Positions 26,699-57,093 of a stretch of DNA of 64,000 bases are shown here, piece by piece (the stretch's first letter is position 1; each line of letters begins with the position of its first letter). The position numbers and the translations under genes were made by a program. Source of the DNA: a virus (taxonomy: Duplodnaviria > Heunggongvirae > Uroviricota > Caudoviricetes). The stretch lies in IMG/VR virus record IMGVR_UViG_3300000228_000007. One strand, 5' to 3'. A model generated the notes under the pieces. The model was not told the DNA's origin and ran no database searches. It saw nothing but the letters and a program-made list of their open reading frames with translations.

Positions 26699-26728
26699 AA
26701 ACTGGAGTAATTACTCCAGTTTTTTTTA
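26699..26728. terminator. perfect palindromic hairpin aactggagtaattactccagtt + T8, bidirectional terminator
   Basis: Read directly. Lies just downstream of the minus-strand phosphatase gene. Confidence 0.6.
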
Positions 26729-26758
26729 TGAGATAAGTTTATTATAATCAGAAACTTC

Positions 26759-27799
26759 TGAAACTTTTCATTCATTAAATGTATCAATTCTTACATATCA
26801 TATATTTCAAAAATCATAAGATCTATCACACCTTATAACAACATCGTATAATTCTTTAACACTTGGCTTTTCGTGATTATAGTAACTATCTGCTTGGTTT
26901 CACCAATGTCAAACAAGCATTCTTATTATACCTTGAGATTTTAAGTATTTTTTTAATGTATTTATATAAATAGTGCTATCTCATTCTTTACCCCAATAAT
27001 ATTTACTGTTATTATACCACGTTGGAATAAAATGAGTTATATTTCACTTCATACTTGCTGATTTAGCTTTATTAATGATTTTTCATTCATTTTCCATTTT
27101 TTCATATATAACTTCTGCCATCCAATTATCTATTACTGAAAGTCTATATAAAACTTTTTCATCAAGTCTCTTAAATCATGCATTTATTTTTTTATATAAT
27201 CGATTCAATCTTCATAATTATCACCTTCAATCCACTCATATTTTTCCCCTACAATAGGAACCGTCTGATAAAATAGGTAATCATCGATGCACTATTAAAT
27301 GTTTGTCTTGAATGTTTAATATATTTCATTTTTCAAACAAAAAATCAGCAATAAAATCAGCATAGTCTTCCCATTTTTCAAAAGTGTCTTCATATCAATA
27401 CTCATGAGTAAAATCAGCATTTTTATAATTAGCTTTTATCGATTCAAGAGTTCTATCCCACCATTATAAAATAATTGGTCATAAAAAATTCACTGTAATA
27501 TTTCACGAGATCTTTCATCTTTTATATTCTCTATTGATAATTTTTTTATTTTACTATTTGAATTTTTTATGCATTCACCATCAAAGTATGAAAAATAAAT
27601 CATGATTACCTAAAGTAATAGTAATTTTATCATTTTTTGCCATTTCTAAGACAGTTTGAAATACTTCATGGATGTTTAGTCATCTATCAAAAATATCTCA
27701 CGCTAAAACAAATTTTTCATCATTTCAGTATTTTTCTTCAAGCATTTTCACCATAGGTTTGAAATTTGGGCTTGAGTGTATATCTGCTATCACTATCAT
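26759..27799 (-). CDS. PPP-family metallophosphatase (Ser/Thr phosphatase or ApaH-like)
   Basis: MIVIADIHSS (GDxHG-like), LAGDIFDRG (GDxxDRG) and LGNHD (GNHE) motifs in order. Stop TAG confirmed at 26759-26761. Confidence 0.6.
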
Positions 27800-27849: not shown

Positions 27850-29769
27850 TTAGTAATAATTTCAAACATTATGTATATATTTTTCAGGTATTTCATTAAG
27901 AAATCTTGAAGGTTGTTGGTATTGATAGTTTCAAAAAATCATTCTTTCACCAACATAACTTAAAAATAAGTTTTCTTTTGCTCTTGTCATAGCAACATAC
28001 ATTAATCTACGTTCTTCCTCTAATCAAGTTAATGTTTCAATTGAATTTTTACTTGGTAAAATACCATCCTCAACAGCAACTACTGCTACGTTTTCAAATT
28101 CAAGTCATTTTGATTTATGAATAGTCATAAGACTTACAAATTCAGCATTATCATCTTTATGTTCATTAGCATCTTGCATAAGAGCTATTTTTTCAACGAA
28201 TTCTATAATTCCTTCATAACCAGGAAATCATTCATAAGACATTCACATCGATACAAGTTCTCCTAAGTTTTGTTTTTTATCATCAAATTCTTCTCAATTA
28301 TAGTTTTTCTCAAGATATTCAAGATATCCTATTTCTTTTATAACCATAGAAATTAAATCACCTACAGACACTGAATCAGATGCTTCTTTCAAATTTTTCA
28401 TAATATTTATAAATTCTTCAAATCAAATTTTTGCTTTACCTTTTAATGAATTTGATACTATTGATGGTTCTTCAATAACTTTGTGAAAATTTCCAGAGTA
28501 TTGTTGTTTTACTATATCTAATATATCAGCTACTCCTTTTGCTCATAATCAACGAGTAGGAGTATTAATAACTCTTTTGAATGAGTTTGAATCTTTTTTA
28601 TTTACTATCAAGTTAATGTATCACATAATATCTTTAATTTCCATTCTTTCTACGAATACCAATCAACCAAAAACCCTATAAGGTATTTTACTATTAATAA
28701 GTGATTGCTCTATTATTCTTGAAATATAATTATTTCTATATAAAATAGCCCATTTTTTAGGCATTCAAGTTTTTAGAATTTCTTTGGCTATATTATCGGC
28801 TTCTTGCAATGAATTATTTAGATTGAATACTTTTATTGGAGTTCAAATATCTCACATTGAAAACAATTTTTTATCAAGTCTAATAGTATTGTTTTTAATA
28901 ACTTCATTAGCTGAATTTACAATAGTTTGAGTTGAACGATAGTTTTGTTCAAGATTTATTACAACAGCTTCTGGATAATCTTTGGTAAAGTTCAATATAT
29001 TTTTCATATCAGCATTTCTAAATGAGTAGATAGACTGATAATCATCTCATATAACACATAAATTTCTCGTATGTGCTGATAATAGTTTCATAATATTATA
29101 TTGTATCATATTAGTATCTTGATACTCATCAACGAAAAAATACTTAAATTGTTTATTAAACCTACTCATTACTTCTGGGATTTTTAGTATTTCAAGAAAG
29201 TTGATTAACAAATCATTAAAATCCATAGCATTGTCATTAAAGATTCTTTTTTGGTATTCTTGATAAAACTCAAATATAATTCTATCTAAGTCCTTTTTTA
29301 TATTTTTTTCTATTAATTCTAAAGAAAATCAAAAGGTTTTAAATTTATCAATTTTATCCTTAAAAAGAGATACATCTAAATCTAACTCTGCGAGTTCCAT
29401 TTCTTTGAATATAGTTTTCATAAGTTTTGTAACATCTCAATCGTCATAAATTGAAAAGGCTTTATCATATCATAATAAATTTCAATAAGTACGAAGGTAT
29501 CTTGCCGCTAAACTATGGAAAGTTCATAAAATAGGCATTCAGGAAATTCATTCAGTTTGTATTCTTGTTGCAATTCTATCTTTCATTCATTTTGCTGCTT
29601 TATTAGTAAATGTTACAGCAAAAATTTCTTCGGGACGGGCTTCTCCATCCAAAATTAATTTTATAATTCTTTCAATTATAGTATGTGTTTTGCCAGACCC
29701 AGCACCAGCATTTATAAGTAATGGTCATTTTATATGATCAACTGCTTGTTGTTGTTGAACGTTTAACAT
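27850..29769 (-). CDS. UvrD/PcrA/Rep-family superfamily-1 DNA helicase
   Basis: Motif [15 protein letters not shown] with the G before PLL as TGA. Motif [18 protein letters not shown] with G as TGA. Further FTNKAA, TFHS and the C-terminal helicase motif V/VI region VAMTRAK. Confidence 0.85.
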
Positions 29770-29977: not shown

Positions 29978-30667
29978 TTAAATTAAAAATAACTTTTCTA
30001 TGGCTTGTTTTTCTCCAGTATTTTTTGTTAAACTACTATTTACTGATTTTTCCCAAACGCAAGTAAAATCTTCTGGTGCATTATATTCACTAACAAATAT
30101 TTTATGTCATTTCTTTTTCATATTTCTACACCATTGCCAAAATTCATCATGATTAAAATTTCAATTCAAATATTTCGTAGTTCATTTATACGGTGGATCG
30201 CAATAGATAATACTTTCTTTTGGTATTTTTAATTTTTTATAATCTATATTGTAAAACTTAATTCATTGTAATGATGGTTTTTGTTTATCTATATTTTTTA
30301 TAGCCTCTTTTGCATAATCCCTTTTTCAAATAGTATCTTTTCTATATTATCAAAAAAACTTTGCTCAATATGATAATTGAAATCAAGTAAATCAAACTAA
30401 CCAATTTGAATATTCACTTTTATTATCTTTAATTTTTATATATTTATCATGATTAACATATGGTGTTTTTTTATTCTTAAGCATCCATTTGAGTAGTGAT
30501 ATTAAATATTTATTACTATCATTTCCTATTCTATTTCAAGTTACTTTATCTATAACATTTGCTCATCAAACAAATGATTCAACATACCATTGTCAAATTA
30601 TTCTATCTTTAAGTATGATTGGTAATATTTCATTTGCAAATTTTCATTTGCTTCACATATATTTCAT
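29978..30667 (-). pseudogene. Dam/D12-family N6-adenine DNA methyltransferase interrupted by an in-frame TAA (30347-30349)
   Basis: N-terminal half MKYMGSKGKFANEILPII...FVGGANVI...NDSNKYLISLL and C-terminal half ...IIYCDPPYKG...IFVSEYNAPEDF are in the same frame, separated by one TAA. That TAA aligns with the Arg of the conserved FNVPFGRYK block. No ATG follows the TAA. Confidence 0.55.
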
Positions 30668-34932: not shown

Positions 34933-35970
34933 ATGAACTATATATGATCTAAAAAAAAATTATTAGAATTCTTAAATGAATCAATAAACCAAATAACTTG
35001 AAATAAATTTACAAGCATAGCAGATTTATTTGCTTGAACATGAATTGTAGGAAGGTTTTATAAGGGAAAAGGTAAAAAAGTTATTTCAAATGATTTACAA
35101 TATTATTCATACGTATTGAATAAATGATATATTGGAGTTAAAAGCATTTATAACTTACAGTTTGAAAAACTTTGATGATTTGATAAAGTATTTGAATCAT
35201 TAAATGATTTACCAGGAAATAAAGGCTTCATGTATAATAACTATTCACCTTGAGTCGGAGAGATAACGCATTGAAGAATGTATTTTACAAATGAAAATGC
35301 AAAAAAATGCGATGCTATAAGAAGCAAGATTGAAGAATATAAAAATAATTCTTTAATCTCTGAAGACGAATATTTCTTTTTATTAGCTTCTTTAATAGAG
35401 AGTATTGATAAAGTGTCAAATACTGCAGCTATCTATTGAGCTTACTTAAAACAATTCAAAAAATCAGCATTAAAAACTTTTATATTAGAGCCATTAATAT
35501 TTGATGAATGAAAATATGATAATGTAATATATAATAAAAACGTTAATGATTTAATTAGTGAATTAAGCCATGTAGACGTTGTTTATTTAGATCCACCATA
35601 CAATGAGCGCCAATATGCTTGAAACTATCATATACTTGAAACAATCGCTAAATATGACACACCTGAGATTACATGAAAGACATGAATGCGTAAAGAATCA
35701 AATAAATCAAAATATTGTTCAAAATCAATAGTAAAAAAAGAGTTTGAAAATTTAATAATGAATATTAATTCTGATTATATTTTTGTATCTTATAACAATG
35801 AATGATTGTTATCTATTGAAGACATGGAAGAAATATTATCAAAAAGAGGAGAATACGGTCTCTTTAAAAAAGAATATCAAAGATTTAAGTCTGATAAAGA
35901 TGTTAATAGAACTTTTTCTGATAATAAGACTTATGAATATCTCCATTACGTAAAATGTAAAAAAGACTAA
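34933..35970 (+). CDS. Dam/D12-family N6-adenine DNA methyltransferase (intact)
   Basis: MNYIGSKKKLL (YxGxK), DLFAGTG (motif I), VYLDPPYN (motif IV), and a following ...FVSYNNEG block. Confidence 0.75.
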
Positions 35971-37809: not shown

Positions 37810-38076
37810 TTATCTTTTAAATAAAAATTTGTTGTTAAAATTTCTTGTAGTAATTCTAAATGTTTTAATATCTGTAACACAATCTCCAATTTCTACTATT
37901 TGTGTATCTATATTTACAACATAATTGTAAGTTACATATGTTATTTTTTCAAAATTTAATGGAGTTGTTCTGTATTTGACTACAATATCTTTTATTCATT
38001 CAAGTGAATATACATTTAATAGTTCTTTTAAAAAGCTTATAAGATTAGGATTTTTAAAATAAGCTTGAACTGTCAT
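37810..38076 (-). CDS. small hypothetical protein (~89 aa)
   Basis: ATG at 38076, TAA at 37810-37812, read from the reverse complement. Confidence 0.35.
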
Positions 38077-38179
38077 AAATTGTATAATTTTTTTAAAAAA
38101 AATCAAAATTTTATTTGTTTTTTTATAAAAAAGAGTATATGGTAATATACTATATAATATAATTTAATTATTAAAAATT

Positions 38180-38722
38180 ATGGATACTATTAATTATAGA
38201 GGTGATATCCCTCAAATAGAGCTTAAAAATACTATTAAAAAAACATTATTTGATAAAGTACTTCTTTTAACAGGTTCTGCTAAAAGAAATTTTTCACTTG
38301 CAATTGATAAAATCAAAAGTGATTATGATATTAATTTTAATACTAAAAATAGCAATACTGTAAGATGAAATGGCAAATCTATATGAGTAATAAGACCTTC
38401 TTTTTGAAACAATAATAATCAATACTCAAATTCATGAACAGATATTAGAAATAAAAATATTTCACAAAATGAAAGACCTTTATTTTGAAATAGACAGGAG
38501 ATATTTTGAAATTTTAAAAATGATAATGATATAAAAAATCCTATTTCAATGTCAAATAATAGACCAGATTTTTGAGATAATCAATGATATAATTCTAACC
38601 ATGAAATTAAAACTGAGCATTCTGAAAGATTAAAGAGAAAAAATATGGTAAAATCTTGAATATTATATAGTTTAGGTATATGATTAATTTGATATAGATT
38701 ATATAAATTTATAAAAAGATAA
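38180..38722 (+). CDS. hypothetical low-complexity protein with C-terminal TM helix
   Basis: Track ORF 38180-38368 extended through 11 TGA codons; the Gly reading gives FGNNNN / LFGNRQEIFGNF repeats. Confidence 0.4.
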
Positions 38723-38973
38723 TCACGGTTTATTTCAATAGATAATTTCTATCATTTAACCTATTAGTCATGTATAAACTATATTTATTTTTCAGTTCAA
38801 TTAGGAATACTATTTTTCAATTCTAAAAATCTTCATTCTCCTAATTGCTCTATTATTTCATATTACCATTCTACTGGCTCTCTGCAATAATTATTAATTA
38901 ATAATAAATGTAAACTAATTATATCAAATAGGTTCTTTATTTTTTTGATTTTTATAATATAATTATTATTTTT

Positions 38974-40157: not shown

Positions 40158-42471
40158 TTACTTATTTGTAAGATTATAATTATTAAGATCATCGATAATT
40201 TGATTTATGTATTGTTCAATATAAATCCAATCTGGAACTATATTATTTTCTAAGTCTTTTGTTACAGGTAAATATATTTCTAACTTATTCAATTCATTAT
40301 CATTTATACCTTTATCGTGATTAAACTCTTCTTTAAATTTTTTCATCATTGTAATAATGAATAATCAATGATTTTTATTAAATTTATTATAATTACTTTT
40401 TAATACAATGATTGATGATGTTTTATAAAATTCTTCTTCTTGATAAAAAGCTAATCAAGCAGCGCCATCCCCATTTTTAACTAACGTTAACCTGTTTCAC
40501 TTAAATGGTTGTTTAATACTTTTTATCTTTTTCATTGAAACGGCATTATTATATTTTGCCGCAATCACTAAATTAGTGTTTCATAATTCACTTGATTGAG
40601 ATGATTCAATACCTCAAATTTTATCAATACTAAACATATCCATAATTTTAAATTTATTCCAAAGTACATTAGATTCCTTGTTTGGATATACACAAATGTT
40701 ACTTTCACCTTCTAAAAATTTTAATACTTTATAAGAATTAGATATAATTTCTGAACCATCTTTTTTATAAACTATATTTGAAAGTGGATTTTTAAATAAA
40801 AAATATTCAATTACCGATGCCCTAAATAGTTTTTCATTGAATAAATATTCATTTAATGGTAAATGATATTTGATATCATCAGTAGGTTTAATCCACTGTA
40901 TAGAATCGTCTCCACTTTGTTTATATATAATATCAACCCATTTATTTTCCAATGATTGCCACTTATTATTTATATCTAACCTTCCTTTGTTTTTTACAGA
41001 TACTAAACCATCATCTTTAATCCAACACGTAAAAATATCACTATTATTTTGTGGAACGTGTGCTTTAAAAATAAAAATAGAAGTATTAACATTAGCCATT
41101 CATGAAAAAACATCAGGAAGTTTTATTATTTTTTGGAGTGAATGTTGATTAAATACTTTTTTAATCCAATTAATACCTATCCCGATTGATAATTTTGTAT
41201 CAGGTAAAATAAATGCACAAATAGCACCATTTTCTACATTATCTAATACATTTTTTACTATTTCTAAACATCCATAAGCATTTTCATATGGGGGATTCAT
41301 TAATACTTTTGTAATATTATTTAATTTAATCCAATTTCCAACACTTTCGGTTCTACTATCATCTTGAATTATATTAGTCTTTCAATCTTTATGAATAAGC
41401 ATATTTGCACAAGCTAATGCATATAATTCCTTCGAAAATTCAACACCAAATAATCTTTTTTCTTTAATTATTTCAACAGACTTATTATTGTTTGGTCATC
41501 CAACTTCATTAATCATATAAGACATTGCTTTTACTAAAAAAGCACCACTTCAACAACTAGCATCTAAGACATTATCCGTATAGTTAGTGCCTGTAATTCT
41601 ATAAATTAATGATGTTATATGATCTGGCGTAAATACTTGTCCTTGCTCAGATTTACCTTTATACCTTGTAAACTCATTAAAAAATATAGCCATTACATCT
41701 TCACCATTCCAGTAAGGACTATTTAAATTTTCAGATATATTATTAATACATTTTATAAAATCATTTATAGCATTTTGATTTTCAGTAGAATTACATTGAA
41801 TAATTTGGAACTGATCGGCAACCAAATCTAATTTAATATTTTGTTTTTTAACATCTTGGTAAGATTTTTTTATTGTTGATAAAATTGACGAGTGCAAAGT
41901 TGACCAATCCATATTTATTGACAAACAATTTTTATTATATCTTTGTGCTACTAATGCACAAGCTGTAAAAATCATTCTATGATATAAATTATTAATACCA
42001 AAATTTTTATGAAGATTATGGTTTATACTTTCTGTTAAAGAATATATTTGTTTTTTATTTATAATATTATTGTTATATAACGATATATAGTATTCTTTTG
42101 TAAATAATTGATTTTTTAAATTAACTAATATTTTATTTTTATAAACTATCACATCTATACCATTATACAAAATTCCAATTACTTTATCATATTTTGTAAG
42201 CGAAATATCTATATTTTTAAATAATTCTTGTTTGCAAGTATTTTTATTTATATCAATATCTGAATTTTTAGTTTCTAAAATTATAGCAACATCATCAAAA
42301 TTATTTGGTAAATACCACCCATCTGGTTTGTCAGCAATTCATTTAAACCCCAATTGATTAAATGTTGTTAATTGACCTACATCACATTGGCTATCTTTAT
42401 CTTGATAAAAATTTAATAAAATCCTTGCTTCATCGCGAACCTTGTCTTCTGTTTTTTTCATAATTATATAT
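40158..42471 (-). CDS. single-polypeptide RM-like enzyme: N-terminal PD-(D/E)xK-like motif, HsdM-like gamma-class N6-adenine methyltransferase, C-terminal HsdS-like TRD (Type IIG / Type I M-S fusion-like)
   Basis: One continuous minus-strand ORF of ~770 aa that joins track ORFs 41550-42170, 41100-41300, 40614-41099 and 40158-40349 through TGA codons. MTase core: GQVFTPDHITSLI (motif X), VLDASCGSGAFL (motif I, the G after C is TGA), NPPYEN (motif IV). C-terminal end ...LPVTKDLENNIVPDWIYIEQYINQIIDDL resembles an HsdS conserved helix. N-terminus has DKPDGWY ... ILETKN (candidate PD...ExK). Confidence 0.7.
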
Positions 42472-43351: not shown

Positions 43352-43882
43352 ATGACTAAAATAATTAACTTAATTTCTTGACCATGAGTTTGAAAATCAG
43401 TTATTGCTGCTGAAATATTTGTTCAAATGAAAATTTTATGATATAATGTTGAATATGTTCAAGAGTATGCAAAAAGCTTAATATGGACTAAAGATTTTGA
43501 AACTTTAAATAATCAGTATTTTGTATCTCATCAACAATATAAACTATTTAAGTCAATGATTGGGAAAGTTGATTATATTATAACCGATGGCTCTCTTGTT
43601 CATGGTTTGTATTATAATCAAATAAATACCGATAATACATCAAATATTGAAAAAACTGATAAAAAAATTAAAGAATATATTTCGGAATTTAAAAATATAA
43701 ATATATTTTTAGATAGAAATCCTGAAATAAAATATGAAGTGGCGTGAAGGCTCCAAAATTTTGAAGAAGCAAAAAGCGCAGATATTGAAATTAAAAATAT
43801 TCTTAAAAGTAATAATTATCCTTTTTTTGATATTATATCATCATTAAAAAACGTAGATAAAATATTAAAAGATATACTGTAA
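43352..43882 (+). CDS. P-loop NTPase (nucleoside/nucleotide-kinase-like or AAA_28-like)
   Basis: N-terminal Walker A LISGPGVGKSVIA and a later hydrophobic-D block DYIITDGSLVH. Track ORF 43556-43747 lies in the same frame. Confidence 0.5.
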
Positions 43883-44068: not shown

Positions 44069-44839
44069 ATGGAAAAAATGCTTATTTGAAGTTGTCTACT
44101 TAAAGAACTATTCCCAGAAGAAAATATTAATATTCATGATATTGATTATGCTATAAGCGAATGAAATTTTTTCGTTGAAAAAGATACTATTACAGGTAAA
44201 AAAATAGAATACCATCCAATACCATGTTTATTTAAGGAAGAATATTCAAATTGTAATAAATTAGATGTTTTATATACATTAAAACTATCACATTCAATAA
44301 GAGATATTAAGTATGATAAAACAATATTAGATATTGACTTTATGATATGAAAGGGAGCTAAAAAAATACCAAATTTATTAAAAGATCTTTTAGATTATTG
44401 GGATGTTATACATTGAAAAAGAAAAACTGCATATTTTATGAAGGAGAATGAAAACTTTTTTGAAGATAAAGTAAAAAGATTAATGCCACATGATGATTTA
44501 CATTATTTAATGAAACTTAATGATGTTGAAATGTATAAAATAGCAAAGAAAAATGATAGTTTAGCTATCATAAATATGGAAATGTTTTTTAATTTAACAA
44601 AAGAACAACAACTTGATATGATTAAAGAGGAGGTTGGTGTTATAGCATTAGAAAGGTATATGTTTTCTTGAATTACAAAAAATATAGAAAGTGCCATTCC
44701 AAAAGCAATGAAAGATCTTATAATAAGAATGTTTTGACCTATAACAGCAATGTTTGTTGTAGAAAACTATCGTGAAATCAGAAAATCAAAAAAAATGAGA
44801 GAAAAAATGAAAGAAATATTTGAAAAATATGCTAATTAA
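44069..44839 (+). CDS. minimal nucleotidyltransferase-fold protein (Pol-beta-like) with C-terminal helical domain
   Basis: LIGSCLLKELFPEENINIHDIDYAI fits the hG[GS]x9-13Dh[DE]h NTase signature. Track ORF 44438-44671 lies in the same frame. Confidence 0.45.
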
Positions 44840-45700: not shown

Positions 45701-46778
45701 TTATTTTTAATTAATAATTTGTAATTACTAGATGTTCTACATCTTTATTCTTTTCATTTCTCCTACGCACTTCATATGCATATTTTTTATCAAAGAATTT
45801 TATATTAATTCATTCTTTATTGTATAATTCAAATATAAAATCTGTATTTTTTATTACAACCATCCATTTACAATTTATTTTTATAAGACAATCTCTTAAT
45901 CTTACCTGATCGTTTTTATTAAATTCATTGTTATCATATTTTGAAAATTCCGTATCATAAGGAGGATCTAAAAATATAAAGTCATTTTCAGTAAATGATT
46001 TATCATATTTTGAAATAAAATCATAAAAATCAAGATTGTTTATATTAGTATTATTGAATAATTCAATAGTATCCTTTTTTGTTATTTCATTTATTTTTGA
46101 AAGTATATTCTTTCAATTATAAGAAGTTCAACCATAAGGTATATTAAATTCTCCTTTTGAATTATATCTAAACATTGATGCATAACAAAACTCTCTAACG
46201 AAAAACCAATATGCTGAATATTCAATATTAGAAATTCATTTTTTATATACTTTATTGATAATACCTCTAAAATACATATAAATACCTCATTTTACAGCAG
46301 TTTCTATATGATCGTCTAATTCTTTATTATTAAATACTTTTCATTCCTTCACAAATATAGCCAAAAGCCTCTTTTTTTTCGATTTAACAGATTTTATAAT
46401 CTCTTTGTACAGTTCGTCAGTAAAAACATTTGAAGTATTACTAAGCTCAATATTTTGACTTGTATTATCATATGAAAAAAAATCTAATAACTCTTTTTTA
46501 TTACTAATAATAAAATCATTACTTGCATCCCATTCTTTATTTACAATATTTAGGTAATTGATAAACTTAACATCTTTTACAGATGTGTAAAAGTTAATAA
46601 GATCAACACTTCTGTCATTTATATAATATGATTTTCATAATTGTTTATTTTGTAATTGAAAAAATACTCAACCACCTCAAAAAAATGGTTCAAAATATCT
46701 ATCAAACTTTGGTAAAAACGCTTCAAAAAATTTGAATTCATCAAATTTTCATCAAGTCCATTTAAGTAGTGGTCTCAT
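45701..46778 (-). CDS. Dam/D12-family N6-adenine DNA methyltransferase (third copy, intact)
   Basis: MRPLLKWTGGKFDEF (FLKWAGGK-like), EPFFGGGGVFF (motif I), FNIPYGG, FLDPPYD (motif IV). Confidence 0.75.
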
Positions 46779-46935: not shown

Positions 46936-47087
46936 ATAATGTAAAAAATAAAAAATGAATAATTTACCTACTGAATTAAAAGAAATGCTTAATTACTATA
47001 CTTCAAAACTTCAAAGTTAATTTGTAAATCAATAAATATACAGTTTATATAAATATTATTTTTGAAATAAAATAGCATGAATAGTTA

Positions 47088-47342
47088 TGTTAATAGATAT
47101 GCTTGATAAAAGCGAACTTTTTAAGAAAGATTCTTTGTTTTTTGCATACGAAGTTGGCTGAATTAACTGAATAGCAACTGAAGTAAAAAGACTTATAGAC
47201 ATGTTTTTAATAAGACAATCAAATGCAAAACTTCAAGAATTTGCAAAAACAGAGTGGCATACAAATAGTAATTCTGATTTTTTAGAGGGTAATTATTTGA
47301 TTAAAAAATATTTCTTAGTATATAGTAATATACTAATTTAAT
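47088..47342 (+). CDS. small hypothetical protein (~84 aa)
   Basis: ATG to TAA with in-frame TGA codons. Confidence 0.3.
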
Positions 47343-47355
47343 TTTAATAAAAAAT

Positions 47356-47604
47356 ATGGAAAATAAAGAAAGCATTGCTTATGTTATAATTGATAGTGAA
47401 TGAATATTCTGAATATATACTTCACAAATAGGTGTGTTAAGATGACAAAGAGATTTTTTATCTATGTATGGAGATAAAGAAAAAATACTTTTACAATGAG
47501 ATTACACATACATTCAATGATTAAATAAAAATGACTCACAACTTATAAATAATTATGATGAGGTAAAACTTTCAGAAGTTACAGAACCAAGTTTGATTTA
47601 TTAA
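47356..47604 (+). CDS. small hypothetical protein (~82 aa)
   Basis: ATG 47356 to TAA. Confidence 0.3.
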
Positions 47605-47669
47605 AAAATATTTGCTTTTTCTATTTTTTTTAGATATAATATATTTATATATCATATAAATATAAAAAT

Positions 47670-48098
47670 ATGTCTCTATTAGATATTTTTTGAAAATTAT
47701 TTTGAAATGATTACAGTAATTTGAATTATAATTACTACATGGAAATTCTCCCTGATTTAACGGAGGATGAAATAAAGAAACTTACAAACTGAATTGTTAT
47801 TAAAAAACAATTAAGGGTTGATTGAAAAAGTGTATATTATAGAATTGCCTTGCCTAGGACCCAACAAAATAATTGAAACATATCAACATTTATAACTATA
47901 ACTTGTGGTGATAAAAGAATGTCTTACCATTGAATTTTTCATCAAAATAATGGAGATACAAAAAATTATTGAGTTCGGAAATATGAGTATTTAGGTAAAA
48001 ATGATTTGTGATATGATGATTTTAAGTCTTGTTGAGAAGAATGTTTTAAAGGCCATTGATGATTATATGGTGGTAATATAAAAGCAAGCCATAAATAA
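47670..48098 (+). CDS. small hypothetical protein (~142 aa), Gly/Tyr-rich
   Basis: ATG 47670 to TAA 48096-48098, verified by codon walk. Confidence 0.35.
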
Positions 48099-48100
48099 TA

Positions 48101-48367
48101 TTGTATTTATTAAAAATAATATATATGAGAAATACACTTGTAATTACGAATGAAATTGAATTATTGGAAAATATAAAATCTATTAATTCAACAAATTCTT
48201 ACTATATAGAAACAAGAATTAAAAAATTTATAGAAATTTATAATAAACCATTATCATTTGATATAGTAATGTCTATTTATGATTATTTAGATTATAAAAT
48301 GGATGAATTAAACGCAACGTTAAAATGTAAATCTTTACATAATAATCTTACTCAATATTTAGATTAA
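48101..48367 (+). CDS. small hypothetical protein (track ORF)
   Basis: Standard-code ORF with no TGA needed. Confidence 0.35.
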   Translation: MYLLKIIYMRNTLVITNEIELLENIKSINSTNSYYIETRIKKFIEIYNKPLSFDIVMSIYDYLDYKMDELNATLKCKSLHNNLTQYLD

Positions 48368-48703
48368 CCAATATACATATATAAAAATTTTAGAAAACAT
48401 AGACAAAAAACCTAAATAATAAGATTAAATTGACTTAATTTCAGGGATTAGAAAATGTTGATGATGACTATCAATATTCAGAATTTCATTGTTATTTTTG
48501 CTGAAATAGTGAAGATAAAAGGTTTATAAAAAGAGTTTGGTTATGAGACCACAATGAAATATCCTTGTATCTGCGAACATTGTTTGGATAAATTTACAAA
48601 AGTATTAAAATTAGTATAGAATTATTCTTTTAAATCTTTTTTTTTGATAAAATCAAATATATCATTATAATAATGTTATTAATAATATTTAATACATAAG
48701 TAT

Positions 48704-49456
48704 ATGAAAACTAAATTTGGAGATAGAATGAAACGATATGAAAGTGAGCTTAATTATACTGTTGATACAACTAAATATACAGTTTTAAGACTCGACTGAC
48801 ATTGATTTTCAAAATTTACTAAAAAATTTGAAAAACCATTTGATATGAGAATTTATAATATCATGAACAAAGTAGTAGAAGATTTATTTTATGAATTTAA
48901 TCCGATAACATGATTTACTCAATCTGATGAAATAACGCTAATATTCAAACCTTCAGAAAATTTTATATATAATGGTAGAATAAATAAGTTGCTTTCTTTA
49001 ACATCGGCTTTTGCAACTGCTCGTTTCAATTTTTATTTATCTCAAGAATTAATAGGTTCTAATGATGAAATTCTTATTAATAAAATTTGATTAGCATTTT
49101 TTGATTGTAGAATTATGTCTATGCCTAATGAAACAGAAGCATTTAATATGTTGTTATGGAGAATGAAAGATTGTGCTACAAATAGTAGAAATACTTATTC
49201 ACAAGAATATATATCTTATAAAGAACTACAAGGTGTTGCAAGTTATGATGCTATAAAAATATGCAATGAAAAAACTTGAAACGATTGGAATAATTTAATA
49301 GAAGGTCTTAAATATTGAACATTATTTAAAAAAGCAGACTTTATAAATAATGAAGGCTTTTTAAGAACAATCGTTAAGCAGTTTCATATTGATATGTCTT
49401 TTAGTGAAGAAATGGTAAATTTTATGCTTTTAGACAAGATACCCTTAAATAATTAA
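48704..49456 (+). CDS. Thg1-like protein (tRNA-His guanylyltransferase family; 3'-5' nucleotidyltransferase)
   Basis: YTVLRLDGHGFSKFTKKFEKPFDMRIYNIMNKVVEDLFYEFNPITGFTQSDEITLIF matches the Thg1 N-terminal signature (RxDG..FhkF....KPnD ... SDE), with G of RLDG and HG as TGA. Start and stop verified. Confidence 0.7.
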
Positions 49457-49494
49457 TATAACATTTATTTTTACTTTTTAACAAAATTTGTTTA

Positions 49495-49829
49495 TGAAAA
49501 AAATATCTACAAATACAATCGTAAGATTGGCACAAAAACTATATAAAAAATGAAATGACTTTGAACAAAAGTATTGATATATCCCAGATTCTATGTCAGA
49601 GACTTTATATTGAGTTAAGTGAGATATGATATTTAGAACATGGGAAGATACATTAAAAATTTATGAAACAGATTCTGTGTGAAATGATTCTCATATATTT
49701 GATATTGTATTTTCAGCAACACAACCAAATTTATATATTTATGAATTTGAAGAAGATTATGTTCAAAGAAATATATTGTTATATGATATAAATATTAATA
49801 AACTTATAGAAGAATTACAAACAATTTAA
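49495..49829 (+). CDS. small hypothetical protein
   Basis: ATG to TAA with TGA sense. Coordinates approximate. Confidence 0.3.
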
Positions 49830-50515
49830 ATTTTAATTAATTATATGACAACAACTGAACATTTTGAATTACAAAACTTTGGTGGCGTTGATAATACCTA
49901 ATTTTAATTTTTAATTATAAACTTATGAATATAGATTTTGATAGCGTAAATATAACTATTAATGATTTGAAAACAGTAATAGTAGCATTAGAAAATGGAT
50001 GATATAATCCCAATCAACCAATTGATGATTATGAAATAGAATACCAATTAAGTGAAATCATTAATAAAAAAGAACAATTATAATTAATTGTTCTTTTTTG
50101 ATAAGAAATCATATTCTTTTTTTAACATTGAAAATATTTTTAATCCATATTCACTTGTATTGCTTTCATACTTTTCAAACTTTTCAAATTCTTTCAAAAT
50201 TACTTACGGCATTCTCCATATATAAATTTTTAGTAAAATTGATGCTTTTAATAACGATTATTCATTCAAAGAACTAAAAAACTCTTGCATATTAAATATT
50301 AAAATTCTTGTTTACTTTTTAATAATAATTAACTCTCAATAGATGAAATTAAATACTTTTTTAATAGTTTTGAAAATTAATAACAAATCCAAGATCTTTT
50401 ATATAGCTTAAATTATACCATCTTCATTTTACTGGTTGAGAATACGTTCAACCAAAAATACTAATACTAGATCTAATTTTTATATTATAAAAATTACTTT
50501 CTATTATTAATAGTA

Positions 50516-50870
50516 TTAATCTTTTAATGATTTAATTTCTTTATTTTTTTCTAATATTTTTTCACACAGCTCATCAAATTTTGTTTTATTATCACTTGCA
50601 GCTATGAATTCATTATTTAAAATACTTGAGAAAACATATTTATCAGCAAGCTTAAGCAGATATTCAAAATTTTGTTTTATTAAGTGTTTATCTTTATTAA
50701 TCTCAGCAGTTCATTGCATAAAAACGTCTATAAGATTATCTATTCGACTCTCTGTTTCAACAAGTCTATAATCAACCATTTCTTGTTCGAATATTTCTGA
50801 ATAAATAGGTATTCCATCAATAATAGTTTGATAATAAGAAGTAATGTAAGCTGTATGTGTTGTTGCCATA
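50516..50870 (-). CDS. small hypothetical protein (~117 aa)
   Basis: ATG at 50870 (atggcaacaacacat...) to TAA 50516-50518. Confidence 0.4.
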
Positions 50871-51104
50871 TTATTTTATAATTATTAAATAGTAGAAGTA
50901 GATTAACAAATCTATTTTATAGAATAAATATATAAAAAATCAAAAAATATATATAAATTTTGTTTTTTTTATATATTTATTGTATTAAATTATTTAATAC
51001 TTAAAAGTATGAATAAAACTACGTTGTATATTACTCTGAATTTAAGCTATTATTAGTGGATTAACTCCACACTTTACTTTAATTTTAATTGACTAATAAT
51101 ATTT

Positions 51105-51414
51105 TATGAGCAACAATAATAATTATGAAACGTATTATACCATTTTGGTTAATAATAAAATAATACAAAGAATAAAAAGTAATACACTAGGATTATGATT
51201 TATGTCTGATGATAATTTTGTAATTTTGTTTTTAGATAATGATGGAGAAAAACAATTTATGTATATAGATAATTATAGTGCGAATATTGTTTGATATATT
51301 CCAGAACTAGATCTAACTTTATTTTGAGAGCATTTGGAATGAACATCTTATTTAAGGTGAAATCCATTTAATATTCAAATAAATGAAGATTTCAAATTTG
51401 CATATAATATATAA
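51105..51414 (+). CDS. small hypothetical protein
   Basis: ATG 51105 to TAA. Confidence 0.3.
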
Positions 51415-52095
51415 ATTATTATATAGGTTTTACTTAATATCAGCTATGGATGTTATCTATAATTGGATTTTCTAAAGGTGTTGGATAATGTGTTGAAATT
51501 TGTTCAATTTAAGTTTTAAATGATTTTTATAGCTATAAAACCTACAAGTGCATTAAATTCATTTTTGGAATATAAAATTACAAAAGTATTACATAAATTA
51601 ATGAACTTATAAAAAAATGCTTGATTTATAGTCATGAGTAATAAACTAATAATTTAATAATAAATACAATAATTATGCCAGACTTAACGATAGCTAAATT
51701 TGATGATAAAAATTATGGATGTATAGTTTGATACGTAGGAACTGATGAACTTTGTCCAGAAATAAAATCTAATACTATTACTGTTCATGTAGAAGAAGTT
51801 GTTATAAAAACATTACATTGAAGTAGAGATAAAATAAATAATATTTTGAAACTAATATTTGAAGAATATAGATAGTTTTTATCTTAATTTATAATAAAAA
51901 TGTCAAACAATATAAAATTTGTACATGTTGTAAAATAAACTCAAGATTCTGAGTGTTATTATTATGAAAACCTAATAAGTGTTTTCAAAAATAAAGAAGA
52001 CGCTGAAAAAGAAGTAGAAAAATTAAGTGAAGAATTTTCAGAACCAACACACCTCTACGAATATAAATCTTTTAATTTATAATAACTATAAAACA

Positions 52096-52247
52096 ATGCT
52101 TGAAAATACTGAAAATATATGAAATTGAACTTATTGTTCAAAATGTAAAAAAGAAATGGATATTATAGTCGAAAAGAAAATTATTAACTACACTATTCAA
52201 AAATATGGGACAGTTATATGCTACTCTTGCCAACAATATTTATAATA
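52096..52247 (+). CDS. small zinc-ribbon-like protein (CSKC...CYSC)
   Basis: 50-codon ORF with two CxxC pairs. Confidence 0.3.
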
Positions 52248-52255
52248 AATAATAT

Positions 52256-52561
52256 ATGAAACTAAACTATCCACTTATATCGTTTGAAAAAAATGATATG
52301 ATTTTAGACTTCATTAAATGACTTTTTAATAATAATTTTTTATTATCAAACAATTCTGATTGAGATATTGTAGTAAATATTACTTTTGAAAACTTTAATA
52401 AAGCAATGACTATTTCAAATTATGAATTTAGTGATTTTGAAGCCTCTATATTTTTAGATTTTGAATACATAGTAAAACTTATAGAAAAATCTAATGTTGA
52501 AATAGATAATATTAATATAACATTGACAAAAGATATAGAATCGTTACCTTATTATTATTAA
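52256..52561 (+). CDS. small hypothetical protein
   Basis: ATG 52256 to TAA 52559-52561. Confidence 0.35.
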
Positions 52562-54988: not shown

Positions 54989-54995
54989 CATAATT

Positions 54996-56523
54996 ATCTT
55001 TTTAAGTATTTTGAACCGAAGTTTTCAATTTCTCTTACAATATTATTATCCTTATATGAATCTAAAGCATCAATGTATTGGAATATTTTGTCTGACCAAC
55101 CTTGAACAAGGTAAACATTATTCATGTTTGAAACCTTTGTACCATATCATCCAACATCAAAAATGAAACATTTTATATTAGGATTAACTTGGTTCATGTA
55201 ATTTTTAAGTTCTTTTTCAACATTAGCAACATCACAAGAAGAGTTATACATTTGACTATCAGAAAAGAACATTATTGTGTCTACGAATAGATTTCTTTTT
55301 GTAAGTTCTTGAATTGCCAAGTATCCGTTAGTTGAATAACCAACTTCACCATCTCGATAAGAATCAAATATATCAAAAGCACCAGTAGGATTTTTTAATT
55401 TAACTGAATCACCGAAAACACCTGCAACACTGTATGGAGAAACTGTTGCCGCAATACCAGTATATAACAGTCCTATATCTATCATTTTTACTGTAGATTT
55501 TGGGTGTATATTATCGGTCATAGAACCTGAAACATCTGCAAATACAGCAATTCTATTGCTTAATTTAGTGTTTTTTACAGAATATAAAACAGCCGTAGAC
55601 AATGCTTTTTTAATTACATTAGAATATAAGTTATTTGGTAAATTCTTATATGCAGAATAAAAACGGAAAGGTAATTGTTTTGAATTTTCAACAGCATTTT
55701 CATTAGAAATGTAATTTGCTATCATAGAAACAAGGTTATCAGCGTCATCTCTATTTACTGAAGCAAATTTATCTGCAACTTCAAGAATATTTCTTAGATT
55801 TCTAATTGTGGCCATATAACCAAGTTTTTTGTTTAAAACAAGATCATACCATACATAAAACACATCAGTAAGGTATGTTTCTGTATTTTTTGGAATAGAT
55901 GAAATAATCCTTTCCCAAGTATAAGGTTTTTCTACTGTGCCATCTAATACTTTTTTTGCAAGAACTGAATTTGGATGTATGATACGAACAACATCTTTTA
56001 GATTAATAGCATAGTTTCTATCATATTTTCCAATTTGATACTCATCAAAATTATTAAATGCCTTAGCAAGACCTTTAATTAATGAGTGCGATAAAGCACC
56101 ACTTTTTGCTCTTTTGTTTACTTTACCTTCTGGTAATAGGTATCCTAATATTTCAACAATATCATCAATTCTTTCAACAGAATCAGCAATTAAATCGCTA
56201 AAATAAGCATTTTCACCATTAAAGTATTGTGAAAGTTCACCAATAATCACATGGCTCATTGTACGCATATTATAAACTTGTCTAACGTAAAATGCTAATC
56301 CAAGTACGAAAGAAGGATTTTTATAAGCTAATTGGCTTATTAAATTTTTAATTTTAACAAGTCTATCATCTTCTTTTTCATAAAAAGAGTCAGTTAAAAA
56401 GTTGGAAACAACCGCTCCAAGAAGTTCAAGTTCCAAAGATAAAGAATAAGCCCTTTCTCCTTCATGATTTACTGTAACGTTATTTACAGTATTCATTACA
56501 TTTTTTGATCCGAATTTTGGCAT
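54996..56523 (-). CDS. rsr: Ro60/Rsr ortholog (TROVE domain + vWA/MIDAS)
   Basis: Track ORF 55147-56523 extends through TGA to TAA at 54996-54998 (~509 aa). vWA MIDAS ADVSGSM is present. Overall length and architecture match Ro60. Confidence 0.75.
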
Positions 56524-56574
56524 AGTATATAATTATTATTTAATAAAAAAGAGTTAAAACTATTGATATAGTTA

Positions 56575-56703
56575 TTAACCCTTGGAGTTCAAATATATTA
56601 TCGTACTCTCATATAAAACAATGATCAAAAATCATTATTTCCTACGAAAGCAAGATACATTTTAATTAAAACTCAAGGGAGTGTGTTAGAGACAGATTTT
56701 TTT
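56575..56703. ncRNA. candidate structured ncRNA adjacent to rsr (possible Y-RNA-like)
   Basis: Long-range stem cccttggagtt (56579-56589) pairs with aactcaaggg (56670-56679) with one bulged C. Internal hairpin atgatcaaaaatcat (56621-56635). Followed by a T-run at 56697-56703. No ORF. Confidence 0.3.
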
Positions 56704-57093
56704 GTTTGTTATACAACCAAAGTTATATAACCATATTTTTTTGCTATAATTAATATAGCAAAAGGTTTTGTGAAAAGTATTTTTCAACTCTTCTAAAAAA
56801 ATCTAAATAGATTAGATTAATCAGTAATTTTATACGATGTATCTGATCTCTCTGTCACCTCGAATTGTGAATATTGTTTTTTTACTGGGATTCTTATGGG
56901 ACAAATTTTTTTTATACATAAATTGTGCGATGAATTTGCGACCCCTGTCACCAGATATTTATATATTATGATATAATTAAAAAAATCAAATCTTTTTTAT
57001 AAAATCATAATAATAAGTTTTTTTTACTTTATTTAAAAATATAATAACTTAAATTAATCGTTAATATTATATACCATACGATATATAATATTA

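What the first reader, a model, noticed from the sequence alone, without database searches (positions are those of the whole stretch)
48704..49456. Thg1-like protein (TLP) embedded in a run of small plus-strand ORFs
The hallmark RLDG-HGF...KPFD...SDE N-terminal motifs of the Thg1 3'-5' nucleotidyltransferase family are present (250 aa). Bacterial TLPs are uncommon and act in tRNA 5'-end repair. The gene sits inside a ~5.5-kb block (47088-52561) of about ten co-oriented small genes of unknown function, a phage-early-region-like organisation. Together with Ro60/Y-RNA, the P-loop kinase plus NTase pair and two metallophosphoesterases, the window has a noticeable RNA end-processing and repair flavour.
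Basis: partly seen in the sequence, partly recalled or inferred. Interest (0 to 1): 0.55.

Follow-up and report, generated by a model that had tools for sequence, protein, structure and literature searches.

The report
Thg1-like RNA repair enzyme, code-25 genome
The gene is a real and apparently intact Thg1-like 3'-5' RNA polymerase, probably a repairer of damaged tRNA 5' ends, that can be read only if TGA means glycine; it is a new member of a known family, and its nearest relatives are carried by viruses.

Summary
Confirmed. ORF 48704-49456 (+) encodes a 250-aa Thg1-like protein (TLP), but only under genetic code 25. It holds six in-frame TGA codons, and each falls in an alignment column where Gly is the commonest residue (51/51 homologs at two of them). 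Window-wide, ORFs of 100 aa or more cover 7% of the sequence under table 11 and 86% with TGA as sense.

Pfam Thg1 scores 116 bits (cut-off 29) and phrog_4717 scores 181 bits. An AF2 model (pLDDT 94.5) matches only Thg1/TLP structures, best BtTLP. The residues E13, R29, D31, K44, S74, D75, E76, K95 and R136 are all present. The eukaryotic tRNAHis-specific HINNLYN motif is absent, so this is a TLP and not a Thg1 proper.

The nearest relatives are one sister code-25 lineage (54%) and then IMG/VR viral contigs (36-44%). No GTDB species genome exceeds 39%.

Eleven surrounding small ORFs look coding by codon usage, but they are orphans and are not conserved next to the sister TLP. Three other neighbours do recur near TLPs elsewhere: an AAA_28 kinase (13 loci), DUF7275 (2 loci) and Ro60 (1 locus).

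Most likely role: templated repair of tRNA 5' ends, as an accessory, virus-derived gene in a Gracilibacteria-like organism. Whether the replicon is a cell or a huge phage is unresolved. This is a new member of a known kind, of moderate interest.

The parts
48704..49456 (+). TLP coding sequence, 250 aa under code 25. In-frame TGA (Gly) codons lie at 48797, 48803, 48911, 49088, 49277 and 49316. Catalytic D31, D75 and E76 are present.
48644..48671 (+). Best sigma-70-like match of the region (TTGATA-16-TATAAT, 11/12), 33 nt upstream of the TLP start. It is a possible own promoter inside the 336-nt gap 48368-48703. This is a consensus match only.
   Evidence: The promoter-like count is not above shuffles. 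The gap has no special fold (z = 0). It carries 2 of the population variants.
47087..48367 (+). Four small orphan ORFs upstream of the TLP: 47087-47341, 47356-47604, 47670-48098 and 48125-48367.
   Evidence: Codon-usage scores 0.22-0.42 in frame and negative out of frame. No Pfam or PHROG hits; the 142-aa ORF 47670-48098 also has no NCBIfam or PADLOC hit. No homologs near other TLPs.
49494..52561 (.). Downstream small orphan ORFs: 49494-49829(+), 49925-50083(+), 50516-50869(-), 51106-51414(+), 51675-51875(+), 52096-52245(+, doubtful) and 52256-52561(+).
43352..43882 (+). AAA_28-type P-loop kinase (176 aa). Homologs lie 0.9-6.1 kb from a TLP gene, on the same strand, in 13 other loci. Its fold is closest to thymidylate and deoxynucleoside kinases.
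44069..44839 (+). DUF7275 protein (phrog_6944) adjacent to the kinase. Homologs lie near TLPs in two viral loci (L096, L134).
54994..56523 (-). Ro60/TROVE protein (phrog_850), 5.5 kb from the TLP. A Ro60-HNH-HNH-TLP co-oriented cluster occurs in a Woesebacteria MAG contig (L022).
56672..56864 (-). Candidate structured RNA beside Ro60 (193 nt): a closing stem formed by its 5' and 3' ends plus 4-5 internal hairpins. A second copy of the 5' motif GGUGACAG lies at 56885-56954(-).
   Evidence: z = -8.7 for the whole gap, -6.9 for the module. No Rfam match.

Best explanation

Shown here:
- It has the Thg1 catalytic domain and fold.
- It has the two-metal carboxylates D31 and D75 plus E76.
- It has the activation-step residues K44 and S74.
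- It has the nucleotidyl-transfer/NTP-binding residues R29, K95 and R136, and also E13.
- It lacks the eukaryote-specific HINNLYN anticodon-recognition motif.

Inferred from characterised TLPs (BtTLP, archaeal TLPs): it forms a tetramer. It activates the 5'-monophosphate of a 5'-truncated tRNA with ATP or GTP. It then adds Watson-Crick-templated nucleotides in the 3'-5' direction, using the 3' strand of the acceptor stem as template, and so rebuilds the 5' end. This is tRNA 5'-end repair or quality control on many tRNAs, not tRNAHis-specific G-1 addition.

The gene belongs to a virus-associated TLP clade. It is an accessory gene in a poorly sampled, Gracilibacteria-related code-25 lineage, which is most likely a cell and possibly a huge phage or other mobile element of such a cell. 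It sits in a variable stretch of orphan genes, within about 5.5 kb of other RNA- or nucleotide-handling genes (AAA_28 kinase, DUF7275, Ro60). Its likely use is to restore tRNAs damaged by nucleases in conflicts between cells, phages and toxins.
For: - Identity: Pfam PF04446 scores 116 bits against a cut-off of 29.2, and phrog_4717 'tRNA-His guanylyltransferase' scores 181 bits. The best PDB sequence match is BtTLP 4kgk at 5e-18, ahead of Candida Thg1 at 4e-13. The AF2 model has pLDDT 94.5. The 32 best Foldseek PDB hits are all Thg1/TLP, best 4kgm with TM 0.77/0.84.
- Residues: E13, R29, D31, S74, D75, E76, K95 and R136 are identical in 51/51 homologs and K44 in 48/51. Their roles are described in PMC3701042.
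- TLP type: HINNLYN is replaced by CATNSRNT, with A158 at the position of the essential His.
- Code 25.
- Viral affinity: the best standard-code relative (44%) lies in a T4-like phage contig that also carries Rnl1 RNA ligase, an HD/AAA_33 kinase, RlaP and SmpB, with a (weak) NUDIX hit next to it. IMG/VR hits reach E = 1e-59, while GTDB genomes reach only 8e-36. In the NJ tree the gene nests among viral contigs. TLPs are found in 162 phage records.
- Context: the kinase recurs near TLPs in 13 loci, while 40 other window proteins recur in 0-1 locus. A Ro60-HNH-HNH-TLP cluster exists in L022. Thg1 and TROVE are listed together as jumbo-phage RNA-repair components (PMC7824862).
- Retention: the sister lineage keeps the gene at 54% identity.
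Against: - No tRNA gene lies in the window or in the relatives' loci, so no substrate can be named.
- No activity can be measured here.
- The kinase that recurs near TLPs looks like a nucleotide kinase of the thymidylate/deoxynucleoside type, not a polynucleotide kinase. In the sister lineage it is not within 10 kb of the TLP. The 'module' may therefore be co-inheritance rather than a pathway.
- Population variants are concentrated in the TLP and are all non-synonymous. They include Y12H and M54I at conserved positions, which would also fit relaxed constraint.
- The tree has no bootstrap support.
- The pattern-based scans of the public collections are not exhaustive, and the metagenome scan used patterns containing Gly, which cannot match TGA-coded copies.
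Confidence: 0.7

Rival explanations
1. The window is part of a huge phage, or another mobile element, that uses code 25. In that case the TLP is a phage counter-defence enzyme that repairs tRNAs cut by host nucleases during infection. The enzyme chemistry is the same as in the best explanation, but the owner and purpose differ.
For: - TLP, Ro60, DUF7275, the kinase, a phosphoesterase, a DnaQ-like exonuclease, a dNMP kinase and an FtsK-RusA fusion all hit PHROG families.
- The TLP nests among viral contigs.
- No tRNA gene and no rRNA or other Rfam family was found in 64 kb, and none of the roughly 30 proteins scanned against Pfam is a ribosomal protein.
- The sister lineage carries an intein-containing RNR, Ham1 and SLT.
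- Code-25 phages are documented (PMC10746230).
- Jumbo phages carry Thg1 and TROVE.
Against: - No capsid, portal, terminase or tail family was found among the window proteins scanned.
- No close relative of the TLP or of PcrA is in IMG/VR.
- The window holds an M50B membrane peptidase, an MscS-type channel domain, an SPFH-like membrane-protein candidate (read from the sequence; its only profile hit is a PHROG 'lipoprotein' family) and a 3762-aa protein with what looks like a signal peptide.
- Sister-lineage contigs of 147-189 kb carry ClpB, an SLH-domain surface protein, VKOR, two aminoacyl-tRNA synthetases, an AI-2E permease and an HMA/DsbD membrane protein.
- The closest named relatives of PcrA are from Candidatus Gracilibacteria.
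Confidence: 0.2
2. The enzyme is the tRNAHis G-1-adding enzyme of this organism. It would be needed if the tRNAHis gene lacks an encoded G-1, or if RNase P removes it.
For: - Sources name the family 'tRNA-His guanylyltransferase'.
- Some TLPs, such as DdiTLP2, do perform G-1 addition (abstract of PMC12632743).
Against: - The HINNLYN motif, whose His stacks on anticodon base G36, is absent.
- The protein is closest to BtTLP, a broad-substrate repair enzyme.
- In most Bacteria G-1 is genome-encoded (abstract of PMC3061083).
- The gene is accessory: the pattern scan found no close homolog in 185,579 GTDB species genomes.
Confidence: 0.08
3. The enzyme's substrate is not tRNA. It would act on the tRNA-like or stem-closed RNA(s) encoded next to Ro60, or on other small RNAs, as part of a Ro60 ribonucleoprotein repair or decay system.
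For: - Ro60 lies 5.5 kb away, with a strongly structured 193-nt RNA candidate beside it.
- Ro60 and the TLP are co-oriented near neighbours in L022.
- PMC5041481 reports distinct biological functions for the four Dictyostelium 3'-5' RNA polymerases (title and abstract); that one of them, DdiTLP4, acts on a non-tRNA small RNA is recalled from memory and was not read here.
Against: - There is only one independent Ro60-TLP neighbourhood among 249 loci.
- In the window the two genes are on opposite strands, separated by unrelated genes.
- Rfam finds no Y RNA.
- The sister-lineage TLP locus has no Ro60.
Confidence: 0.05
4. The gene is a dispensable horizontally acquired passenger that is losing function in this population.
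For: - Six of the seven differences between strains across 14.6 kb fall in the TLP or its upstream gap.
- All five coding variants are non-synonymous, including Y12H and M54I at conserved positions.
- The flanks are orphan genes.
Against: - The window allele keeps every invariant residue and has no frameshift or premature TAA/TAG stop.
- The sister lineage retains an intact ortholog at 54% identity.
- Five non-synonymous against zero synonymous changes is not significantly different from the neutral expectation (roughly 0.3 by my estimate).
- The clustered variants form one haplotype, which is consistent with a single recombination import.
Confidence: 0.05

Closest known systems
Bacillus thuringiensis TLP (BtTLP; PDB 4KGK/4KGM)
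   Same: It is the best solved-structure match by sequence (5e-18, residues 4-223) and by fold (TM 0.77/0.84). The carboxylate triad is the same (BtTLP D30/D75/E76 = D31/D75/E76 here), as are E12/E13, R28/R29 and R131/R136. The motif is TLP-type (xKNS) and not HINNLYN. The length is similar (245 against 250 aa).
   Different: Foldseek identity is only about 23% (34% over the phmmer-aligned stretch by hand count). The gene is encoded with six UGA-Gly codons. It groups with viral TLPs and not with Firmicutes TLPs. The position of BtTLP M158 is T164 here.
Phage TLPs (phrog_4717), such as those of Lak megaphages, Erwinia and Yersinia jumbo phages, Bacillus phages, and the T4-like IMG/VR contig Ga0256748_1000038
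   Same: This is the strongest profile match of all (181 bits). Identity is 31-44% over more than 90% of the length. These genes also sit in accessory regions beside RNA-repair genes: Rnl1, RlaP, kinases, NUDIX, and TROVE in some jumbo phages.
   Different: Those genomes use the standard code and carry virion genes. No virion gene was found in this window, and the sister lineage looks cellular.
Eukaryotic Thg1 (yeast, Candida, human THG1)
   Same: The fold, the two-metal active site and the activation/transfer residues are the same.
   Different: This protein lacks the HINNLYN motif used for tRNAHis anticodon recognition. It scores lower against Thg1 (46-52 bits) than against BtTLP (68 bits). 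It is expected to be template-dependent and not tRNAHis-specific.
TLPs of giant viruses and amoebozoan or other protists (Tupanvirus, Mimivirus, Satyrvirus, Dictyostelium, Anaeramoeba)
   Same: These are the next-nearest named relatives (34-39% identity). The linked AAA_28 kinase also has NCLDV homologs at 53-57% identity (Yasminevirus, Kaumoebavirus, Indivirus).
   Different: The hosts are eukaryotic and the code is standard. The proteins are longer (279-305 aa).

Membership tests
Thg1/TLP superfamily (3'-5' nucleotidyltransferases, Pfam PF04446) | Significant match to the Thg1 catalytic-domain profile above the curated cut-off | tested here: met
   116.3 bits against a cut-off of 29.2, residues 7-141 covering profile positions 2-130 of 130.
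Thg1/TLP superfamily (3'-5' nucleotidyltransferases, Pfam PF04446) | Three conserved active-site carboxylates (hTHG1 D29/D76/E77; BtTLP D30/D75/E76) | tested here: met
   D31, D75 and E76, each identical in 51/51 homologs. Their roles are described in PMC3701042.
Thg1/TLP superfamily (3'-5' nucleotidyltransferases, Pfam PF04446) | Activation-step residues (ScThg1 K44, S75) and transfer-step residues (R27, K96, R133), plus E13 | tested here: met
   K44 (48/51), S74, R29, K95, R136 and E13 (all 51/51).
Thg1/TLP superfamily (3'-5' nucleotidyltransferases, Pfam PF04446) | Polymerase-palm-like Thg1 fold over the whole chain | tested here: met
   The AF2 model has pLDDT 94.5. The model was built from the code-4 translation P0001, which differs at the six TGA sites and at M54I. 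The top 32 Foldseek PDB hits are all Thg1/TLP, and the next hits are adenylyl cyclases at E > 1e-3.
Thg1/TLP superfamily (3'-5' nucleotidyltransferases, Pfam PF04446) | Homotetramer and 3'-5' nucleotide addition activity | not testable with these tools
   This needs recombinant protein recoded from TGA to GGN.
TLP subgroup (bacterial/archaeal-type repair enzymes) | Absence of the eukaryote-specific HINNLYN motif, and closer to BtTLP than to Thg1 | tested here: met
   The sequence reads WRMKDCATNSRNTY. A158 stands at the His position and T164 at the ScThg1 N161 position. Scores are 68.4 bits to BtTLP against 52.4 bits or less to Thg1.
TLP subgroup (bacterial/archaeal-type repair enzymes) | Template-dependent repair of 5'-truncated tRNAs of many kinds | not testable with these tools
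   Inferred from BtTLP and archaeal TLPs (PMC3061083, PMC3701042, PMC4820378).
Eukaryote-type tRNAHis guanylyltransferase (Thg1 proper) | HINNLYN motif with the essential His that stacks on anticodon base G36 | tested here: not met
   The motif is absent.
Phage tRNA-His guanylyltransferase family (phrog_4717) | Full-length profile match | tested here: met
   E = 5.9e-53, 181 bits, residues 1-232 covering profile positions 1-229 of 250.
Phage tRNA-His guanylyltransferase family (phrog_4717) | Located on a phage genome | tested here: inconclusive
   No virion genes were found in the window. The sister lineage has cell-like genes. Many neighbours do belong to PHROG families.
Genetic code 25 (SR1/Absconditabacteria-Gracilibacteria) | UGA is a sense codon and specifies Gly, not Trp | tested here: met
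   The closest named relatives of PcrA are from Candidatus Gracilibacteria at 44-46% identity.
Genetic code 25 (SR1/Absconditabacteria-Gracilibacteria) | tRNA-Gly(UCA) present and release factor 2 absent | not testable with these tools
   There are no tRNA genes in the window, and the rest of the genome is not available.

The most novel reading that the evidence does not exclude
The TLP, the AAA_28 kinase, DUF7275, Ro60 and a Ro60-adjacent structured RNA together form a virus-derived RNA-repair toolkit captured by a deep-branching, code-25 CPR lineage, or carried by its huge phage. Under this reading the TLP is a fast-evolving player in a tRNA-targeting arms race. That would explain why nearly all strain-level variation in 14.6 kb lies in this gene and why every coding change alters the protein.
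Probability: 0.15. Interest if true: 0.55.

Novelty: new member of a known kind. Interest (0 to 1): 0.35.

Why it matters
[quoted passage not shown] It also shows that this copy belongs to the virus-associated branch of the family, not to a bacterial core lineage.

There is a practical lesson. Under the default bacterial code this gene, and 86% of the window, is invisible or is mistranslated with Trp. Public protein collections hold it as a code-4 translation with Trp at invariant Gly positions.

If the loose association with Ro60, the kinase and DUF7275 reflects a pathway, it would give a small, testable RNA-repair set in episymbiotic CPR bacteria or their phages. The enzyme itself is otherwise an ordinary TLP.

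Tried and rejected
- Table-11 reading: rejected. It gives 54-aa fragments and 7% coding.
- Code 4 (TGA = Trp): rejected. No TGA position aligns with W, and two align with invariant G.
- tRNA genes in the window and in the relatives' loci: none, so the tRNAHis G-1 status could not be tested.
- Rfam at gathering and E-value thresholds: nothing relevant.
- Known defence system membership: PADLOC hits only the type IIG R-M enzyme at 40158-42461.
- NCBIfam: no model matches the TLP or its neighbours.
- Small-ORF partners: they have no Pfam or PHROG hits, no homolog beside the sister TLP, and none in 249 TLP loci.
- Shared promoter or repeat motifs in the block: none beyond chance.
- Idea that the linked kinase is a 5'-OH polynucleotide kinase feeding the TLP: not supported. 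PHROGs calls it a thymidylate kinase, and the fold search returns thymidylate and deoxynucleoside kinases. It has no PDB sequence relatives.
- Finding the source contig by scans: the IMG/VR scans found no close relative. The metagenome scan used Gly-containing patterns that cannot match TGA-coded copies. The source-like contig was instead reached through the kinase.
- dN/dS on the small ORFs: impossible, because the other assemblies are identical there.

Full report
OBSERVATION

The frame 48704-49456 (+) runs from ATG to TAA and holds 250 sense codons. Under the standard bacterial code it is interrupted by six TGA codons (codons 32, 34, 70, 129, 192, 205), and the longest table-11 ORF inside it is 54 aa. 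The DNA reads RLD-TGA-H-TGA-F.

GENETIC CODE

The whole window has about 22% G+C. ORFs of 100 aa or more cover 7% of it under table 11 and 86% when TGA is treated as sense. All 42 larger genes contain TGA. TGA (650 codons) outnumbers GGN (397 codons), and the stops are 39 TAA and 3 TAG.

In an alignment with 51 homologs, all six TGA positions of this gene fall in columns where Gly is the commonest residue, and two of them are Gly in 51/51. The two TGG codons align with Trp columns. The Dam-type methylase at 45711-46778(-) reads KWT-TGA-TGA-K, which is the KWxGGK motif. This is code 25, the code of Absconditabacteria and Gracilibacteria.

Public collections hold the same protein as a code-4 translation with Trp at those sites (P0001).

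WHAT THE PROTEIN IS

- Read with Gly, the protein matches Pfam Thg1 (PF04446) at 116 bits against a cut-off of 29.2.
- It matches the phage family phrog_4717 'tRNA-His guanylyltransferase' at 181 bits over its full length.
- NCBIfam has no model for it.
- The best solved relative by sequence is the Bacillus thuringiensis TLP (4kgk, 5e-18), ahead of Candida, yeast and human Thg1.
- An AlphaFold2 model has mean pLDDT 94.5.
- The 32 best Foldseek hits in the PDB are all Thg1/TLP chains, best BtTLP 4kgm at TM 0.77/0.84. The next hits, adenylyl cyclases, have E > 1e-3.

Functionally defined residues are all in place. These are the carboxylates D31, D75 and E76 (BtTLP D30/D75/E76, hTHG1 D29/D76/E77), the activation residues K44 and S74, the transfer residues R29, K95 and R136, and E13. 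Each is identical in 48-51 of 51 homologs.

The eukaryote-specific HINNLYN motif, whose His stacks on anticodon base G36 of tRNAHis (PMC6471195), is replaced by CATNSRNT. The protein is therefore a TLP and not a Thg1 proper.

WHOSE GENE IT IS

The PcrA helicase of the window (27850-29769, minus strand) has its best named relatives in Candidatus Gracilibacteria at 44-46% identity.

One sister lineage exists in the Logan assemblies SRR254905xx. Its identities to the window are TLP 54%, PcrA 69%, giant surface protein 72% and topoisomerase 58%. The order giant protein - PcrA - topoisomerase is conserved.

Near-identical copies of this region occur in four other assemblies, including JGI 3300000233 contig TB_FS06_10DRAFT_1000015 (77.5 kb, 99.55% identical).

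Beyond these, the closest TLPs are viral. IMG/VR contigs reach 36-44% identity (E down to 1e-59). The best of 185,579 GTDB species genomes reaches 39% (E = 8e-36), and no Gracilibacteria or Absconditabacteria genome appears among the 80 best. In a neighbour-joining tree of 229 TLPs the window and its sister nest inside a viral clade. No GTDB genome appears in the enclosing clades up to 30 leaves (no bootstrap).

The best standard-code relative (P0004, 44%) lies in a T4-like phage contig with a terminase and a T4 neck protein. It sits among Rnl1 RNA ligase, an HD/AAA_33 kinase, RlaP and SmpB, with a (weak) NUDIX hit next to it. TLPs occur in 162 deposited phage genomes, mostly jumbo phages. Iyer et al. 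2021 describe Thg1 and TROVE/Ro60 as sporadic parts of jumbo-phage RNA repair.

CELL OR PHAGE?

This is unresolved.

For a phage or other mobile element:
- Many window genes fall in PHROG families.
- No tRNA gene and no rRNA or other Rfam family was found in 64 kb, and none of the proteins scanned against Pfam is a ribosomal protein.
- Code-25 phages are known (PMC10746230).

For a cell:
- No virion family was found.
- The lineage is absent from IMG/VR.
- The window encodes an M50B membrane peptidase, an MscS-type domain, an SPFH-like membrane-protein candidate (read from the sequence; its only profile hit is a PHROG 'lipoprotein' family) and a 3762-aa protein with what looks like a signal peptide.
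- Sister-lineage contigs of 147-189 kb carry ClpB, an SLH-domain surface protein, VKOR, two aminoacyl-tRNA synthetases and an AI-2E permease.

I put the cellular reading at about 0.75-0.8.

NEIGHBOURHOOD

Eleven of the twelve small ORFs between 47087 and 52561 have in-frame codon-usage scores like real genes and negative or near-zero scores in the other five frames. One of them lies on the minus strand, and overlapping alternative ORFs score as non-coding. They have no Pfam or PHROG hits; the one also run against NCBIfam and PADLOC, the 142-aa ORF at 47670-48098, has none there either. They share no motif. They have no homolog beside the sister TLP and none in 249 TLP-containing loci. Similar runs of small ORFs flank unrelated genes in the sister genome. 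The 'phage-early-like' reading is therefore not established, and the block is better described as a variable orphan-gene region.

Three larger neighbours do recur near TLPs:
- The AAA_28 kinase (43352-43882) has homologs 0.9-6.1 kb from a TLP, on the same strand, in 13 loci, mostly the viral clade nearest to this TLP.
- DUF7275 (44069-44839) recurs in two viral loci.
- Ro60 recurs in one locus, a Woesebacteria MAG contig with Ro60-HNH-HNH-TLP.

As a control, none of the other 40 window proteins tested, including Tmk, the methylases, DnaG and the topoisomerase, recurs in more than one locus.

The kinase is probably not a polynucleotide kinase. PHROGs names its family thymidylate kinase, and its confident model (pLDDT 96) matches thymidylate and deoxynucleoside kinases. 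In the sister lineage it is more than 10 kb from the TLP. The linkage may therefore be co-inheritance from a viral donor rather than a pathway.

POPULATION DETAIL

Between the window and the four other assemblies, seven differences lie in 39.3-53.9 kb. Six of them fall in 48542-49378, which is the TLP and its upstream gap. The coding ones are all non-synonymous: K4E, Y12H, A146T and K225N, plus M54I in another assembly. None is synonymous and none touches a catalytic residue. The cluster forms one haplotype. It fits a recombination import, relaxed constraint or diversifying selection, and the numbers are too small to choose between these.

MECHANISM

Shown: an intact TLP active site and fold.

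Inferred from BtTLP and archaeal TLPs: the enzyme forms a tetramer, activates a 5'-monophosphate end with ATP or GTP, and then adds templated nucleotides in the 3'-5' direction to rebuild the acceptor-stem 5' strand of truncated tRNAs.

The rivals are tRNAHis G-1 addition, a phage counter-defence role, a non-tRNA Ro60-linked substrate, and a decaying passenger gene. Each is listed with its evidence in the rival explanations.

VERDICT

This is a new member of a known family. It is notable mainly for its code-25 encoding and its viral affinity, and its interest is moderate to low.

Noticed in passing
window 56524-57093 (- strand), especially 56672-56864 and 56885-56954: The 570-nt gap between Ro60 and DnaG folds far better than shuffles (z = -8.7). 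A 193-nt module (z = -6.9) has a closing stem made by its 5' and 3' ends plus 4-5 hairpins. A second copy of its 5' motif GGUGACAG lies just upstream. This may be a Y-RNA-like partner of Ro60, but Rfam finds nothing and the G+C content is not raised.
   Followed up: partly
window 48542-49378 compared with L250, L253, L254 and L255: Strain-level variation is concentrated in the TLP and its upstream gap: 6 of the 7 differences in 14.6 kb. The coding changes are K4E, Y12H, A146T and K225N, plus M54I in another assembly. All are non-synonymous and none is synonymous.
   Followed up: partly
window 37816-38910: This is a second hot spot of divergence against JGI contig TB_FS06_10DRAFT_1000015. It holds indels of about 30 nt and many substitutions upstream of and inside ORF 38180-38722 (10 non-synonymous, 4 synonymous). 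The ORF encodes a low-complexity protein with a C-terminal membrane anchor.
   Followed up: no
window 26726-27799 (- strand): Three consecutive ORF pieces (26726-27208, 27218-27340, 27554-27799) all match one 342-aa metallophosphoesterase of the sister lineage. The gene is probably a frameshifted pseudogene, or the split reflects an assembly error.
   Followed up: partly
window 9868-12270 (+): An 800-aa protein fuses an FtsK/SpoIIIE-like ATPase to two RusA-like Holliday-junction resolvase domains (phrog_1358 plus phrog_140 and phrog_34). This is an unusual architecture.
   Followed up: no
window 14727-26015 (+), and L166 16336-21914: A 3762-aa protein with what looks like an N-terminal signal peptide is 72% identical to a 3766-aa protein of the sister lineage and is syntenic with PcrA and the topoisomerase. 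It is a likely cell-surface giant protein. The minus-strand ORFs inside it also 'match' the sister sequence, but only because the underlying DNA is conserved.
   Followed up: partly
L022 4368-8202 (Candidatus Woesebacteria GW2011_GWB1_39_12 contig LBWB01000030.1): A co-oriented, tightly packed cluster of Ro60 (TROVE + vWA), HNH, HNH and TLP. The two HNH endonucleases suggest a phage or mobile origin for this MAG contig.
   Followed up: partly
L087 7957-12376, L091 1220-4862, L093 8691-13517 (IMG/VR contigs): In the viral clade nearest to this TLP the gene order is conserved: a 417-aa protein with an HExxH motif and a vWA-like DxSGS motif (judged by eye, not run against Pfam), then in L087 only a 243-aa ORF with metallophosphoesterase-like motifs (also by eye), then the TLP, then a small AAA-like protein, then an ORF I read as MazG-like (by eye), and then the homolog of the window's AAA_28 kinase (tblastn). 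L095 instead has what looks by eye like an RNA-ligase-type protein just downstream of the TLP.
   Followed up: no
window 30347-30667 (- strand): A 106-aa ORF resembles only the N-terminus of a D12-class adenine methylase (MGSKGK...), so it is probably a gene remnant. Two full D12 methylases (34933-35970 and 45711-46778) and a type IIG R-M enzyme (40158-42461) are also present.
   Followed up: no
public protein collections (P0001, P0002, P0003, P0121, P0241): Proteins of this lineage are stored as code-4 translations, with Trp at every UGA site, for example RLDWHWF instead of RLDGHGF. This lowers apparent identity by about 3% and puts Trp into invariant Gly columns.
   Followed up: yes
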